DNA of 64,000 nt from Escherichia coli (lineage in GTDB: Bacteria > Pseudomonadota > Gammaproteobacteria > Enterobacterales > Enterobacteriaceae): assembly GCF_013315695.1 (NCBI RefSeq), contig NZ_CP054353.1. The stretch is one strand, 5' to 3'. Under the pieces are notes generated by a model. The model was not told where the DNA came from and made no database searches. It was given only the letters and a program-made list of their open reading frames with translations. This document shows, piece by piece, positions 8,925 through 11,058 of this stretch. The position numbers and the translations under genes were made by a program. Position 1 is the stretch's first letter. Each line of letters begins with the position of its first letter.

Positions 8925-9221
8925 ACGTCATACCCTCTGGAAGAATGAAACACGCCCGGATTAAATTTCATTTTTCGCGGGTATAAAAAAACGATGGGGC
9001 GGGCAGTCCCGGATAGTCAGGGCTGTAGAGATTTGACTACCCCCTCCCCACTGGATTCAGGTTACTGCTATTCCGTTAAGCGCTGCTTACGGGGATAGCT
9101 GCGTTGTGATTTTGACCATTCAGGTCGCCGCTATTTCCTCACCGATTGGGTGCTACGCGCGCGCGTACTTGTCCCGAAATACCAGAAACCGCCAGCCAGA
9201 GGATGATTTCCCTCTGGTGGT

Positions 9222-9503
9222 CTACCTTTGCCTCTTGCCGCCATTTAACCGGAAGGCGTTACCGTTCGGTTGCGCTATCCCCATGCGGTGTTGCGTTTCG
9301 GTAACAGCTTTATGCAGGTCGCCAAATTCCTCAACCTTCACGGGCGGGCGCTTCACGTTCTCCAGACACGTTTCACGGCGGCGCTTTATCCATTCCCGAT
9401 CATCGTCCTCGGTGCATAACAGCATGACTTCCATCCATCGTGCGGCAGCTCTCCGGTATAGCCCTTTTGACTCCAGCTCTTCAGCTTTCCTGTCCCTTAT
9501 CAT
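9222..9503 (-). CDS. PerC-family transcriptional activator-like protein (Pch-like)
   Basis: 93-aa ORF starting MIRDRKAEELESKGLYRRAAARWMEVM, matching the conserved PerC/Pch N-terminal signature from memory. Confidence 0.55.
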   Translation of the reverse strand: MIRDRKAEELESKGLYRRAAARWMEVMLLCTEDDDREWIKRRRETCLENVKRPPVKVEEFGDLHKAVTETQHRMGIAQPNGNAFRLNGGKRQR

Positions 9504-9539
9504 TTCTGCCTCTCAGATTATATAGATAAGCAAAAAGGT

Positions 9540-9584
9540 GTTGGTTCAGTTGGTTCAGTTGGTTCAGTTGGTTCAGTTGGTTCA
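9540..9584 (+). repeat. Perfect tandem repeat (GTTGGTTCA) x5
   Basis: Five contiguous identical 9-bp units between the divergent genes 9222-9503 (-) and 9781-10236 (+). Confidence 0.95.
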
Positions 9585-9627
9585 ATTTGTAAAGATTGTT
9601 GTTTTTATTGTGTTTTTTCTGAAATAT

Positions 9628-9678
9628 TGAACCAACATCAACTCATTTTGAACCAACACAGCCCAGCTCTGAACCAAC
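9628..9678 (+). repeat. Three inverted copies (TGAACCAAC) of the 9-bp unit, spaced 21 bp apart
   Basis: Copies at 9628-9636, 9649-9657 and 9670-9678 are the reverse complement of GTTGGTTCA; 21-bp spacing puts them on the same helix face. Confidence 0.9.
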
Positions 9679-9780
9679 AACACAGCGATAGATTTGTGAT
9701 TGGTCCGTTATTTTCTGGCTGATATTTGAGCGTATAACAGTGTTATACAGTGGTATACTGTATGGATATTACTCACTGAT

Positions 9781-10236
9781 ATGGTCTTTGCAATGAGCAA
9801 ATCTAATCTGGTCGCGTTCCGCATCCCATCTGAATTGCAGGATGAGTTTAATCGGTCTGTTCTCGCTTCTGGAGGAGATAAAACCTCCTGGCTTGTTGAT
9901 GCGATTCGCATGAAGCTGGGGCAGCCGGAAAAGTCTATTGATTCACGAATGCTTGGGCTGGTGGAGCGCATGGAAAAAGCCGCTGCGTCGCTTATTGCCG
10001 GAAAGCCGAACATCCCACCAAAACCATATAACGAAACGGCAGTTATAAAGATCATTGCCGATACCATCCAACAGGGATTTGATAATGGGCGTGTGATAGC
10101 TGAACGGATCAATGAAGCAGGCTATCAAACAAAAGCTGGTAAAGCGTGGGATAAAGATATTTACAGCGCGTGGAAGCGTCAGGGAAGCAATGCTGAAAAG
10201 CTAAAAGCAGTGATTGATTGTAAGGTCAGCGTATAA
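9781..10236 (+). CDS. Hypothetical protein, possible DNA-binding regulator
   Basis: 151-aa ORF directly downstream of the 9-bp repeat array; the C-terminal segment (GRVIAERINEAGYQTKAGKAWDKDIYSAWKRQ) resembles recombinase-type HTH. Start may be ATG 9793. Confidence 0.45.
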   Translation: MVFAMSKSNLVAFRIPSELQDEFNRSVLASGGDKTSWLVDAIRMKLGQPEKSIDSRMLGLVERMEKAAASLIAGKPNIPPKPYNETAVIKIIADTIQQGFDNGRVIAERINEAGYQTKAGKAWDKDIYSAWKRQGSNAEKLKAVIDCKVSV

Positions 10237-10315
10237 ACATGAGTGCCCATTGGAAAGTTGCTTGGGCCAATACCTTTATACACCAGCAGGTAGTGACGAT
10301 AGGTGAGGATCAGAT

Positions 10316-10537
10316 ATGAAAGGCAGAACGCCACACATTGAACATCAAGCCAACCACTTCCCTGATGTTCGCAATGAGATGATTGCCATTCGCGGTGATA
10401 TGCACGGATTGGAGCGTCGAATTATTGATAAGATTGATGAAAATAGAGATAAGGCCAGTGAAAATCAAAAGTGGATCATCGGCCTGTTGATTTTATCAAT
10501 TCTTATCCCGCTACTTATCGCATTGGTCACAAAATGA
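10316..10537 (+). CDS. Small protein with C-terminal transmembrane anchor (XhlA-like architecture?)
   Basis: 73 aa with a GAGGA Shine-Dalgarno 7 nt upstream; charged N-terminal part then hydrophobic tail IIGLLILSILIPLLIALV. Confidence 0.4.
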   Translation: MKGRTPHIEHQANHFPDVRNEMIAIRGDMHGLERRIIDKIDENRDKASENQKWIIGLLILSILIPLLIALVTK

Positions 10538-11058
10538 ATATCCAATGTGTATGCTGTCGATGCTACGCGCGCGTACTTGTCGCAAAATATCAGGCAAAGG
10601 CCAGATTCAGAAAGTCGTGATAACCACCAGCACAACATGAGAGGTCATGTAACGCGATTTATCACACCAGATACATGTGATTGGTGTACCCGCATAAAAC
10701 ATCGTCATAGCGCGTCCTGTGCGCATATACGCCGATAATCAACACATCACCACCACTCTGTCTCATGTAGAGAACAGTTTTATGGTATCCCCCGCCATCG
10801 TGTGCGTACTGGTCGGACGCAGTTGCAAAAAATTTTGCAACTGATACCCCTCGCGCGCGTACTGGTCACGAAATTGGTGTTTTGCTGTGGCAGTGATATC
10901 AGAAAAATCTTCCTGTTTCACATAAAGCGGATATGCGCGTACTGTAACGGCCCCATCAACTGGGAGCGGACTTGAAATCCCGACCCAAGCTATGTACCAA
11001 ATGCCATGTCTTGGATATATGATGATTGCCATTCTAAACAACGCTAAAGGGGGTTGGT

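What the first reader, a model, noticed from the sequence alone, without database searches (positions are those of the whole stretch)
9136..10945. Dispersed GCGCGCGTACT(T/G)GTC motif in at least three clear copies bracketing the regulator and small-protein genes
Near-identical about 20-bp elements occur at about 9147 (TGCTACGCGCGCGCGTACTTGTCCCGAAATACCAGAAA), 10565 (TGCTACGCGCGCGTACTTGTCGCAAAATATCAGGCAAA) and 10852 (CTCGCGCGCGTACTGGTCACGAAATTGG), with degenerate copies near 10800 and 10925. Each has a GC palindrome core (TACGCGCGCGTA). They may be operators, recombination sites or ends of a miniature element bounding the 9.2-10.6 kb module.
Basis: seen in the sequence. Interest (0 to 1): 0.5.

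Follow-up and report, generated by a model that had tools for sequence, protein, structure and literature searches.

The report
Conserved repeat in a phage-satellite island
The repeated GCGCGCGTACT(T/G)GTC motif is real and belongs to a remnant phage-satellite island (an EcCIMP1-like PICI); it is a conserved, one-directional DNA element, most likely a protein-binding site, at which the island's gene modules have also been recombined.

Summary
**Observation.** It is confirmed for three clear copies, A at 9159, B at 10567 and C at 10853. A fourth, D at 10800, is a partial duplicate. All four lie on the + strand, against 0.28 matches expected by chance. The proposed copy near 10925 is not supported.

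**Context.** The motif is not a genome-wide repeat. Only about 10% of complete E. coli genomes carry it, and always inside related islands. Window ~7.5-14 kb is the distal part of an EcCIMP1-like PICI. It holds the att core, a helper-type cos site, PerC and an ori-like iteron block. The functional EcCIMP1 carries copies A, B and C in the same order.

**Conservation.** Related islands in at least 10 enterobacterial genera carry the same oriented 25-30 bp element. It is the only conserved block in otherwise unalignable intergenic DNA. Its core, (A/G)GTACGC, also forms same-orientation tandem arrays spaced 9-16 nt apart.

**Best reading.** It is a cis-acting protein-binding site of the operator/iteron class, binder unknown. 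Because the copies are direct repeats, they also act as crossover points:
- One E. coli genome has a clean A/B hybrid that lacks the 1.4-kb PerC-iteron-ORF151 module.
- Another has a fused D/C copy.

**Rejected.** MITE ends, cos subsites, a structured RNA and conserved coding are not supported. Interest is moderate.

The parts
9146..9192 (+). Copy A of the element (core GCGCGCGTACTTGTC at 9159-9173). It lies between the 3' end of PerC and the cos site, 244 nt upstream of ORF61 on the minus strand.
   Evidence: Model R1 E=1.6e-5. Orthologous copy in EcCIMP1 at L080 10354-10379. This 47-mer is present at >=80% coverage in 252 E. coli genomes.
10557..10600 (+). Copy B (core at 10567-10581), just after ORF73. 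It forms the left edge of a conserved ~500-bp segment and the boundary of a variable cargo slot.
   Evidence: R1 E=4.3e-5. Homology to L004, L005 and most of 545 genomes starts at 10557. Two alternative left flanks exist. Copy in EcCIMP1 at L080 12108.
10795..10814 (+). Copy D, a partial and degenerate copy (GTGTGCGTACTGGTC), 53 nt upstream of C.
   Evidence: 2 mismatches. family D3. R1 only E=1.6. L004 carries a single fused D-left/C-right copy.
10848..10879 (+). Copy C (core at 10853-10867), the best match to the cross-genus consensus.
   Evidence: R1 E=2.2e-6. Copy in EcCIMP1 at L080 12396.
10822..10841 (.). 20-nt palindrome GTTGCAAAAAATTTTGCAAC inside the 53-bp D-to-C unit. The unit is absent from L004.
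   Evidence: 10-bp hairpin in both strands.
9222..9503 (-). PerC/ANR-family regulator gene. It lies inside the A-B module and encodes the same protein as EcCIMP1_025.
9531..9690 (.). Ori-like iteron block inside the A-B module: GTTGGTTCA x5, an AT-rich spacer, then inverted TGAACCAAC x3.
   Evidence: families D1, D7, D11. The layout matches that described for E. coli PICI origins (PMC6092414). A second, 83% identical block lies 3' of the EcCIMP1 primase.
9781..10236 (+). ORF151: an Arc-like ribbon-helix-helix (RHH) N-terminus plus a conserved C-terminal domain. It was used as the anchor to find related islands and lies inside the A-B module.
10316..10537 (+). ORF73, a small membrane protein. 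It is variable cargo, replaced by an Abi gene or by HTH genes in relatives.
8951..9050 (.). cos site homologous to HNH/HK97-type cos phages (SfV, SfII, phiP27, ST64B, SKA5). The GGGGCGGGC core lies around 8995.
8739..8924 (-). ORF61, a small conserved gene next to cos. In relatives, GTACGC arrays lie upstream of its homologues.
7513..7522 (-). TCCTATTATC, the att core reported for EcCIMP1. It marks the distal end of the PICI remnant.
   Evidence: PMC11773190.

Best explanation
The motif copies are the E. coli versions of an oriented 25-30 bp cis element. It is typical of one subfamily of Gram-negative phage-inducible chromosomal islands (PICIs): EcCIMP1-like islands and the ORF151-bearing islands of other genera.

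**The element.** Read on the strand of the island's long operon (the window's minus strand), it is YTGRTRATTT-N3-SAMMAGTACGCGC, usually followed by a short (CG/CA)n tract and GAGG.

**Inferred function.** The nearly invariant core (A/G)GTACGC is a recognition word for a DNA-binding protein. The protein is encoded by the island or supplied by the helper phage. The word is used in two ways:
- As single sites in intergenic positions on both sides of the second iteron block and the accessory-gene slot.
- In relatives, as 2-4 tandem copies spaced 9-16 nt apart, upstream of the ORF61-family gene where that gene was detected.

The sites would then work as operator/iteron-class sites that coordinate expression or replication of the distal module.

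**Shown consequence.** The copies are direct repeats sharing 22-35 nt, so they serve as crossover points:
- A x B recombination removes or exchanges the PerC-iteron-ORF151-cargo module.
- D x C changes the copy number.
- B is the edge of the cargo slot.

**In this window.** The island has lost its int-proximal two thirds to IS1. The sites are therefore probably orphaned here.
For: **Shown**
- The copies are non-random and all on one strand.
- They are restricted to islands: 566 of 5,426 E. coli genomes, never on plasmids, never under an annotated feature.
- They are absent from the rest of the 64 kb and from a PICI of another type in CFT073.
- A, B and C are present in the same order and strand in EcCIMP1, which has been shown experimentally to be mobile (PMC11773190).
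- In 44 ORF151-anchored loci from other genera, a sequence model finds the element in 18 loci, with 28 of 30 hits on the same strand.
- In seven loci from six genera, it is the only conserved block in otherwise unalignable DNA upstream of a small RHH gene.
- It lies within 170 nt of that gene in 12 of 13 loci. It occurs in only 6 of 31 loci that lack the gene (p=9e-6).
- GCGTAC tandem arrays at 9-16 nt spacing occur in 23 of 44 loci, all in the motif's orientation. Where ORF61 was detected they lie upstream of it. They co-occur with the motif (p=0.0065).
- In L051 and L047 a core sits directly next to a TATAAT box.
- In Providencia and Proteus loci, the element is the outermost unit beside an array of 19-nt direct repeats and an AT-rich stretch.
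- Crossover evidence: the A/B hybrid in AHB1, the fused D/C copy in L004, and the B boundary.

**Inferred**
- That a protein binds the element.
- That the binding regulates expression or replication.
Against: - No binder is identified. None of the nearby DNA-binding genes is always present with the motif: EcCIMP1 lacks ORF151 and ORF67, and L034 lacks ORF61.
- No sigma-70 promoter or terminator is predicted next to any window copy. The position relative to genes is not fixed: upstream of ORF67 in some loci, downstream in others.
- Model R1 does not pick up the 19-nt array units. Their kinship with the motif rests on alignment by eye.
- Within E. coli the flanks are as conserved as the motif, so only the cross-genus comparison shows selection. 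Horizontal transfer of a short module could inflate that signal.
- Variation within the element has a three-base rhythm that also fits a coding origin.
Confidence: 0.45

Rival explanations
1. The copies are boundary or 'linker' repeats with no binding function. They are relics of past duplications that persist by hitch-hiking, and their only effect is to give homologous recombination or slippage a foothold for shuffling island modules.
For: - The A/B hybrid occurs in one genome, whose island is EcCIMP1-type on one side and Ec387-type on the other.
- The D/C copy is fused in L004.
- B is a replacement boundary.
- Within E. coli the motif is no better conserved than its flanks.
- The window island is a truncated remnant.
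Against: - A 13-27 nt block stays nearly invariant and same-stranded across at least 10 genera while everything around it is unalignable.
- The same core forms tandem arrays at regular spacing.
- Only 1 of about 551 genomes shows the hybrid, and no reciprocal product was found.
Confidence: 0.2
2. The element acts at the RNA level. It would be part of the 5' untranslated region, or an intercistronic signal, in the island's long operon transcript. It would sit just before a Shine-Dalgarno sequence (the ribosome-binding site) and control translation or processing. A neighbouring ProQ/FinO-like protein might assist.
For: - The orientation is fixed relative to the operon, 28 of 30 hits.
- GAGG follows the core in most independent instances.
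- In L051, L055, L077 and L078 that GAGG lies shortly before the ORF67 start codon.
- A ProQ/FinO-like gene, named from its sequence by eye and not tested against a profile, precedes ORF67 in the Morganella-type loci.
Against: - Folding of both strands around A, B, C/D and two relatives is no more stable than shuffled sequence, with z from -1.8 to +0.8. No common structure emerges.
- There is no Rfam match.
- In five loci the element follows the stop codon instead of preceding a start. The short open frames after it are not conserved.
- The arrays upstream of ORF61 look like DNA sites.
Confidence: 0.12
3. The copies are coding remnants. On the minus strand they read F-R-[DE]-[QK]-Y-A-R. They would be leftovers of a duplicated gene fragment, for example the Toprim segment of the island primase or a DUF4222-type gene.
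For: - Variable positions within the element follow a three-base rhythm. The two L071 copies differ at synonymous third positions.
- One copy lies inside a primase Toprim coding segment (HFREQYARATIIIAADND in L056). It is 21/22 nt identical to copy C, with a weak peptide match, E=0.004 for that single comparison.
- Copy C lies in an unannotated 92-aa ORF that has database relatives. One of them carries a DUF4222 N-terminus.
Against: - In most loci the frame is closed within 2-15 codons of the element.
- The frame differs between loci that share the DNA block, e.g. SWSVNFDDLDTSTR versus SYSVNNGEFRDQYAR.
- A and B end in stop codons.
- There is no Pfam match for the E. coli ORF.
- No ORF67 or other gene remnant is detectable between C/D and B by tblastn or nhmmer.
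Confidence: 0.08
4. The copies are sites of a dedicated site-specific recombination or cassette-exchange system, or the ends of a small mobile unit. That system would insert or excise the PerC-iteron-cargo module.
For: - A and B are direct repeats with a palindromic core and flank a discrete module. One genome lacks the module, leaving exactly one hybrid copy.
- GTACGC-type sites flank the iteron/ORF151 block in other genera too.
- The C-terminus of ORF151 weakly resembles a recombinase-type HTH, E 0.05-0.5.
Against: - There is no recombinase catalytic domain in or next to the module.
- The palindrome length differs between A and B by one CG unit. C, D and the other genera lack the palindrome.
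- The module's content differs between relatives.
- The element is never found outside this island family.
- No reciprocal junction exists in 5,426 genomes.
- The 35-nt overlap in the hybrid is what homologous recombination would give.
Confidence: 0.07
5. Copy A is an accessory packaging site, a cosB-like or terminase/HNH-binding site belonging to the adjacent cos site.
For: Copy A lies about 150 nt from the cos core. ORF61, whose relatives carry upstream GTACGC arrays, is the first gene on the terminase side of cos.
Against: - The motif is absent from the cos regions of the helper-type phages. It lies outside the stretch shared with them, on the side away from terS.
- B, C and D lie 1.5 kb or more away.
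- Many motif-bearing relatives show no cos homology nearby.
- ORF61 shows no similarity to helper TerS.
Confidence: 0.05

Closest known systems
EcCIMP1, the E. coli MP1 PICI at thrW between proA and yagU (ISME J 2025, PMC11773190)
   Same: - The window 7506-9679 segment is 97.7% identical to the distal end of EcCIMP1, and PerC, ORF61 and the pRiA4b ORF-3 protein translate to 100% identical proteins.
- The chromosomal neighbourhood (yagU) is the same, and the att core TCCTATTATC is present.
- Motif copies A, B and C are present in the same order and strand.
   Different: - The window keeps only the distal third. The int, AlpA, antirepressor, Ash and primase genes are gone, and an IS1 sits at the break.
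- The window carries ORF151 and ORF73 in the cargo slot, where EcCIMP1 has a small HTH gene and a second ORF61 paralogue.
- The paper does not mention the motif, the iterons or a cos site.
Replication-origin iterons of Gram-negative PICIs (Fillol-Salom et al. 2018, PMC6092414)
   Same: Both are short, oriented repeats in intergenic DNA of the same kind of element, close to iteron blocks. In relatives the GTACGC core forms arrays at regular spacing, and in Providencia/Proteus loci the motif sits at the edge of an ori-like array.
   Different: [quoted passage not shown] In the window that description fits GTTGGTTCA/TGAACCAAC at 9531-9690, not the motif.
- The motif copies are single and dispersed.
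- The motif keeps the same sequence in islands whose iterons differ (GTTGGTTCA, AATCTTAAC, GGTTGCCA, GTCCCATAC, GTAACCA). It therefore does not track the initiator allele.
Phage P4 ori/crr: dispersed binding sites for one replication protein (from my own knowledge of P4, and as cited in PMC6092414)
   Same: In both cases a satellite with an alpha-type primase carries copies of one short word at separate places. These flank or lie distant from the origin and act in cis.
   Different: - P4's word (TGTTCACC) and its binder (the alpha protein) are known. Here neither binding nor a role in replication has been tested.
- The window island has no primase.
Operator arrays of ribbon-helix-helix regulators (P22 Arc/Mnt, omega, ParR/ParG-type; from my own knowledge)
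   Same: Both show short direct or inverted repeats spaced about one helical turn apart, next to small RHH genes. Here those genes are ORF67 (weak RHH_1 match) and ORF151 (labelled Arc-like by one source). Some cores abut a -10 box.
   Different: - No sequence similarity to the Arc or Mnt operators.
- No RHH gene is always present with the motif.
- No promoter is predicted at the window copies.
Conserved boundary sequences at module junctions of mosaic phage genomes (the modular-evolution idea; from my own knowledge)
   Same: Short shared sequences at the edges of exchangeable modules, with hybrids whose crossover lies inside them.
   Different: Such linkers are usually seen only among close relatives. 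This element is conserved and strand-fixed across genera, which argues for a function of its own.

Membership tests
Genome-wide dispersed repeats of E. coli (REP/BIME, ERIC, etc.) | Many copies per genome, spread over the chromosome in most strains | tested here: not met
   The 47-mer of copy A matches 566 of 5,426 genomes, with a median of 2 places and a maximum of 8. There is no copy in the remaining ~50 kb of core genome in the window.
MITE / miniature transposable element | Terminal inverted repeats at the two ends of the unit | tested here: not met
   All window copies are on the + strand. 28 of 30 hits across 46 sources are on the same strand.
MITE / miniature transposable element | The unit is found at unrelated sites, with target-site duplications | tested here: not met
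   The copies always lie at orthologous positions of one island family. The flanks of A and B share nothing beyond the repeat.
Site-specific recombination site (att/dif/attC-like) | Precise hybrid sites produced by exchange between two copies | tested here: inconclusive
   One A-left/B-right hybrid occurs among 5,426 genomes, and no reciprocal product. The 35-nt overlap is equally consistent with homologous recombination.
Site-specific recombination site (att/dif/attC-like) | A cognate recombinase gene associated with the sites | tested here: not met
   No recombinase catalytic domain lies in or beside the module. The island integrase uses a different core, TCCTATTATC.
Site-specific recombination site (att/dif/attC-like) | Inverted binding arms around a spacer of fixed length | tested here: not met
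   The palindrome is 14 nt in A and 12 nt in B. It is absent in C, D and other genera.
PICI replication-origin iterons | Two sets of short repeats flanking an AT-rich region, 3' of the pri-rep gene | tested here: not met
   In the window this layout is met by GTTGGTTCA/TGAACCAAC at 9531-9690. The motif copies are single and lie 350-1,300 nt away.
PICI replication-origin iterons | The repeat sequence co-varies with the initiator allele and is bound by it | tested here: not met
   The same motif occurs in islands with at least five different iteron types. Binding is not testable with these tools.
Repressor/activator operator | Sites overlap or adjoin a promoter | tested here: inconclusive
   No promoter-like site is found at the window copies. 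In L047 and L051 a core lies directly beside a TATAAT box.
Repressor/activator operator | Specific binding by a regulator encoded nearby | not testable with these tools
   The candidates ORF67, ORF151, ORF61, PerC and AlpA-type proteins are each missing from some motif-bearing island.
cos subsite (cosB / terminase-binding repeats) | Located between the nicking site and terS, and shared with or adapted from the helper phage | tested here: not met
   The motif is absent from the phiP27 and SKA5 cos regions. Copy A lies outside the shared stretch, on the side away from terS.
Known structured RNA family | Match to an Rfam model, or unusually stable and conserved folding | tested here: not met
   There are no relevant Rfam hits at E<=1. 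Folding z-scores range from -1.8 to +0.8.
Gram-negative PICI (context of the motif) | Island-specific att site, PerC-type accessory gene, iteron origin and helper cos; int/alpA/pri-rep module | tested here: inconclusive
   The att core, PerC, the iteron block and cos are present, with 97.7% identity to the distal end of EcCIMP1. The int/alpA/primase module is missing from the window copy, so it is a remnant and not a complete PICI.

The most novel reading that the evidence does not exclude
The (A/G)GTACGC element could be the shared operator of a regulator of this PICI subfamily that has not yet been identified. [quoted passage not shown] Alternatively, it could be the recognition site of a dedicated system that swaps the accessory/defence cassette between islands. 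Either way, the conserved 25-30 bp element would give a direct bait for finding the protein that controls or reshuffles these satellites.
Probability: 0.15. Interest if true: 0.65.

Novelty: new member of a known kind. Interest (0 to 1): 0.4.

Why it matters
[quoted passage not shown] A nearly invariant, strand-fixed site shared by islands from E. coli to Proteus and Xenorhabdus is a concrete handle. It can be used as bait for the binding protein, and it can be mutated in EcCIMP1, which can be manipulated experimentally.
- **A worked example of module exchange.** The A/B hybrid shows how satellites gain or lose regulator and defence cargo such as PerC, Abi and superinfection-exclusion-like genes.
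- **A helper lead for EcCIMP1.** The distal end of EcCIMP1 carries a cos site of the HNH/HK97-type phages (SfV, phiP27). The EcCIMP1 paper left the island's packaging route open. This site suggests a helper class that would explain EcCIMP1's poor transfer by Kapi1.
- **For this window.** The finding is a modest one: relic sites in a truncated island.

Tried and rejected
1. **Helper-phage cos subsite.** The motif is absent from the phage cos regions.
2. **Sigma-70, sigma-54 or sigma-E promoter.** The scan found nothing at the copies. By eye, no consistent -35/-10 or -24/-12 spacing appears across copies.
3. **Terminator or structured RNA.** There are no terminator-like sites, no Rfam hit, and folding no more stable than shuffled sequence.
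4. **The 233-nt spacer between D and B as a decayed ORF67 gene.** I proposed this and then withdrew it. tblastn with five ORF67 queries and an nhmmer profile find nothing.
5. **The minus-strand ORF as a toxin or DUF4222 gene.** There is no Pfam hit. Its relatives are near-identical E. coli and Salmonella fragments with shifting frames.
6. **ORF151 or ORF67 as the obligatory binder.** EcCIMP1 has the three copies but neither gene.
7. **ORF61 as a TerS mimic.** It shows no similarity to helper TerS and has no PDB relative.
8. **A universal PICI feature.** The CFT073 island has no copy.
9. **The 19-nt Providencia/Proteus array units as members of the motif family.** Model R1 does not detect them, so this stays a resemblance seen by eye.
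10. **Related sequence in phage genomes.** ORF151 and ORF73 have no protein-level (tblastn) match in 50,697 phage records. At the DNA level the 2.2-kb region has no near match, and the distant search found only the cos stretch and part of the iteron block.
11. **Literature.** The two PICI papers I checked do not mention the motif. The supplementary files of the 2018 paper hold no GCGTAC/GTACGC string.
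Full report
**1. The observation**

The pattern GCGCGCGTACTKGTC, with up to two mismatches, occurs four times in the 64-kb window: at 9159, 10567 and 10853 (exact) and at 10800 (two mismatches). All four are on the + strand. Chance expectation is 0.28, and none of 100 shuffles reaches four.

A and B share about 40 nt and differ by one CG unit. C shares about 28 nt. D lies 53 nt upstream of C. The copy proposed near 10925 shares only GCGCGTACTG, and a sequence model built from 21 instances does not find it at E<=10. I count it as chance.

The 12-14 nt palindrome exists only in A and B and differs in length between them. 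It is therefore not the conserved feature.

**2. Where the motif sits**

The window is E. coli chromosome. The region around the motif is the distal part of a phage satellite:

- Window 7506-9679 is 97.7% identical to the end of EcCIMP1 (PMC11773190). EcCIMP1 is a 20-kb PICI at thrW between proA and yagU, shown experimentally to be mobilised by phage Kapi1.
- The att core reported for EcCIMP1, TCCTATTATC, is at 7513-7522.
- The remnant runs to an IS1 near 14 kb. It lacks the integrase, AlpA, antirepressor, Ash and primase genes.

Reading along the minus strand, the remnant holds:

| Feature | Coordinates | Evidence |
|---|---|---|
| P22-type DNA-transfer protein | 11693-13798 | |
| Convergent SieA-like membrane protein gene | 11059-11673 | |
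| Copies C and D | 10853, 10800 | |
| Copy B | 10567 | |
| ORF73 and ORF151 (opposite strand) | 10316-10537, 9781-10236 | |
| Iteron block: GTTGGTTCA x5, AT-rich spacer, TGAACCAAC x3 | 9531-9690 | |
| PerC | 9222-9503 | |
| Copy A | 9159 | |
| cos site matching SfV, SfII, phiP27, ST64B and SKA5 at 81-95% | 8951-9050 | |
| ORF61 | 8739-8924 | |
| pRiA4b ORF-3 gene | 8076-8618 | |

The iteron block has the layout described for E. coli PICI origins (PMC6092414).

**3. Is it a common repeat?**

No. The 47-mer of copy A matches only 566 of 5,426 complete E. coli genomes. The median is two places per genome and the maximum eight. No match is on a plasmid or under an annotated gene.

A scan of 2.9 million viral contigs with a 20-nt version returned 28 loci. 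Nearly all are the orthologous A, B and C positions of E. coli prophage-like contigs. EcCIMP1 itself has A, B and C in the same order and strand. A PICI of another type, in strain CFT073, has none. That island has a different primase, CTGTCTACC iterons and a lambda-type cos.

**4. Relatives in other genera**

ORF151 has an Arc-like ribbon-helix-helix (RHH) N-terminus and a very conserved C-terminal domain. It is widespread in Enterobacterales. Using it as an anchor, I fetched 44 loci from one genome per species. A sequence-only model of the motif gives 30 hits at E<=10 over the 46 sources searched (the window, L034 and the 44 loci; 576 kb). Of these, 28 are on the ORF151 strand, and 18 of the 44 anchored loci carry a hit.

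The genera include Morganella, Providencia, Proteus, Xenorhabdus, Tatumella, Rosenbergiella, Chimaeribacter, Symbiopectobacterium, Buttiauxella and Erwinia.

Read on the opposite strand, which is the strand of the primase operon, the element is TTTGATGATTWA-NN-SACCAGTACGCGC. It is usually followed by a short alternating CG/CA tract and GAGG.

- It lies within 170 nt of a 63-72-aa RHH gene, which I call ORF67 (weak RHH_1 match).
- It does so in 12 of 13 loci that have this gene. It occurs in only 6 of 31 loci that lack it (p=9e-6).
- In some loci it lies just upstream of ORF67, in others just downstream.
- In an alignment of the ORF67 upstream regions from seven loci in six genera, this element is the only conserved block.

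That footprint is the main evidence that the element is under selection in its own right.

**5. The core word**

The hexamer GCGTAC/GTACGC is enriched 250-1,000 nt upstream of ORF151. In 23 of the 44 loci it forms tandem arrays of two to four copies at 9-16 nt spacing. Every array has the same orientation as the motif. In the loci where an ORF61 homologue was detected, the arrays lie upstream of it. Array presence goes with motif presence (p=0.0065).

Individual array units, such as CAAGTACGCAC in L051, match the E. coli copies (CAAGTACGCGC) almost base for base. In L051 and L052, two units overlap the -35 region and an inverted one abuts a perfect TATAAT upstream of the ORF61 homologue. In L047, a copy lies between a TATAAT and the ribosome-binding site of an AlpA-like gene.

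In Providencia and Proteus loci, the motif is the outermost unit beside four to six 19-nt direct repeats, an AT-rich stretch and a second repeat set. That arrangement looks like an origin. Model R1 does not score those 19-nt units, however, so their kinship with the motif rests on alignment by eye.

Copy A, 244 nt upstream of ORF61, is the positional counterpart of the ORF61-upstream arrays.

**6. What it is not**

- *Not part of the helper cos.* The phage cos regions lack it, and copy A lies outside the shared stretch.
- *Not an evident promoter or terminator*.
- *Not a known or unusually stable RNA*.
- *Not conserved coding sequence.* On the minus strand the copies read F-R-[DE]-[QK]-Y-A-R and the variation has a three-base rhythm. 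But the frame is closed within a few codons in most loci, and it differs between loci that share the DNA block.
- *An unexplained coincidence.* One copy does lie inside a primase Toprim coding segment, 21/22 nt identical to copy C. I record this as unexplained.
- *A withdrawn idea.* I proposed that the 233-nt spacer between D and B is a decayed ORF67 gene. The tests do not support it.
- *No fixed binder among nearby genes.* EcCIMP1 has the three copies but neither ORF151 nor ORF67, and the Ec387 island (L034) lacks ORF61.

**7. Recombination at the copies**

Homology between the window and most related E. coli islands restarts at 10557, just before copy B. To the left, the cargo differs: ORF73 in some islands, an Abi gene or HTH genes in others. 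L004 has a single D-left/C-right copy where the window has D, a 53-bp unit containing a 20-nt palindrome, and C.

I built a synthetic 96-mer joining the left flank of A to the right flank of B. It has one full-length match in 5,426 genomes, isolate AHB1.

- There, window 7680-9185 is joined to 10561-11063 through one hybrid copy with a 35-nt overlap.
- PerC, the iteron block, ORF151 and ORF73 are absent.
- The island is EcCIMP1-type on one side and Ec387-type on the other, and it sits at dinD-yicC.
- The reciprocal junction was not found.

The copies therefore do bound a module that can be lost or exchanged. The data are equally well explained by homologous recombination between 22-35 nt repeats, and no dedicated recombinase is in sight.

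**8. Conclusion**

The best-supported account is that the motif is a conserved, oriented cis element of one PICI subfamily. It is most likely a protein-binding site of the operator/iteron class, with (A/G)GTACGC as its recognition core. It is placed on both sides of the distal iteron block and the accessory slot. As a direct repeat, it doubles as a crossover point for module exchange.

- *Shown:* non-randomness, restriction to the islands, cross-genus conservation and strand bias, the tandem arrays, and the hybrid junctions.
- *Inferred:* protein binding and any regulatory or replicative role.

In this window the island is truncated, so the sites are probably orphaned. The element has not been described in the two PICI papers I could check. 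It is a new member of a familiar kind of feature and of moderate interest.

Noticed in passing
window 8951-9050: There is a cos site 81-95% identical to those of HNH/HK97-type cos phages (SfV, SfII, SfIV, phiP27, ST64B, SKA5). The same stretch lies in the distal end of EcCIMP1. The EcCIMP1 paper left the island's packaging route open and named only the P22-like phage Kapi1 as a (poor) helper. This suggests a different, cos-type helper class.
   Followed up: partly
window 9531-9690; L080 19296-19396 and 10730-10857: This is a PICI-type iteron block: GTTGGTTCA x5, an AT-rich spacer, then inverted TGAACCAAC x3. EcCIMP1 has two such blocks, one 3' of the primase and one next to PerC (83% identical, opposite orientation). 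The arrangement is reminiscent of P4 ori and crr. The window keeps only the PerC-side block.
   Followed up: partly
window 9781-10236: ORF151 belongs to a very conserved family (59-79% identity among the sequences recovered, from E. coli to Erwinia and Providencia). It has an Arc-like RHH N-terminus and a C-terminal domain, DNGRIIAERLNEAGYQTKAGKAWDKDIYSAWKRQ, that weakly resembles recombinase-type HTH domains. It has no Pfam family, no PDB relative and no phage homologue.
   Followed up: partly
window 10822-10841: A perfect 20-nt palindrome, GTTGCAAAAAATTTTGCAAC, sits inside the 53-bp D-to-C unit. It is present in most E. coli relatives but missing from the Ec387 island. It could be an operator or a hairpin. 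Its function is unknown.
   Followed up: no
L056 10526-10550 (Morganella morganii): A copy of the motif lies inside the Toprim coding segment of the island primase (..HVAKHFREQYARATIIIAADND..). It is 21/22 nt identical to window copy C. Other primase alleles lack it. Whether this is coincidence, gene conversion or the origin of the motif is unexplained.
   Followed up: partly
L034 ~9850-9870; also L042, L049, L051, L063, L067, L070, L071: A second recurring word, AGTCCATAAAAA, appears in the origin-proximal intergenic regions of many related islands, often just before a terminator or the next gene. It is absent from the window.
   Followed up: partly
window 695-7500: Left of the att core lies a separate patchwork. 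It holds a tyrosine integrase (695-2029), a phage tail-fibre/baseplate-like gene (2111-2824), a truncated gene and an IS2. It is not part of the EcCIMP1-like remnant. In strain MP1 the same position holds a different small island (vat, marR).
   Followed up: no
window 11059-13798: A P22-type DNA-transfer/ejection protein gene (ORF701) is convergent with a weakly SieA-like membrane protein gene (ORF204). The layout resembles the gene 16-sieA end of P22. Relatives carry an Abi gene or other cargo nearby, so this stretch looks like a defence/exclusion slot.
   Followed up: partly
L080 ~11330-11440 (EcCIMP1); L050 ~8000-8070: Direct repeats of GGTTCGCA / GTTCGCA occur upstream of the second ORF61 paralogue in EcCIMP1. 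They also occur next to the GTACGCA array in a Tatumella island. They differ from GGTACGCA by one base, which suggests a family of related sites upstream of ORF61-type genes.
   Followed up: no
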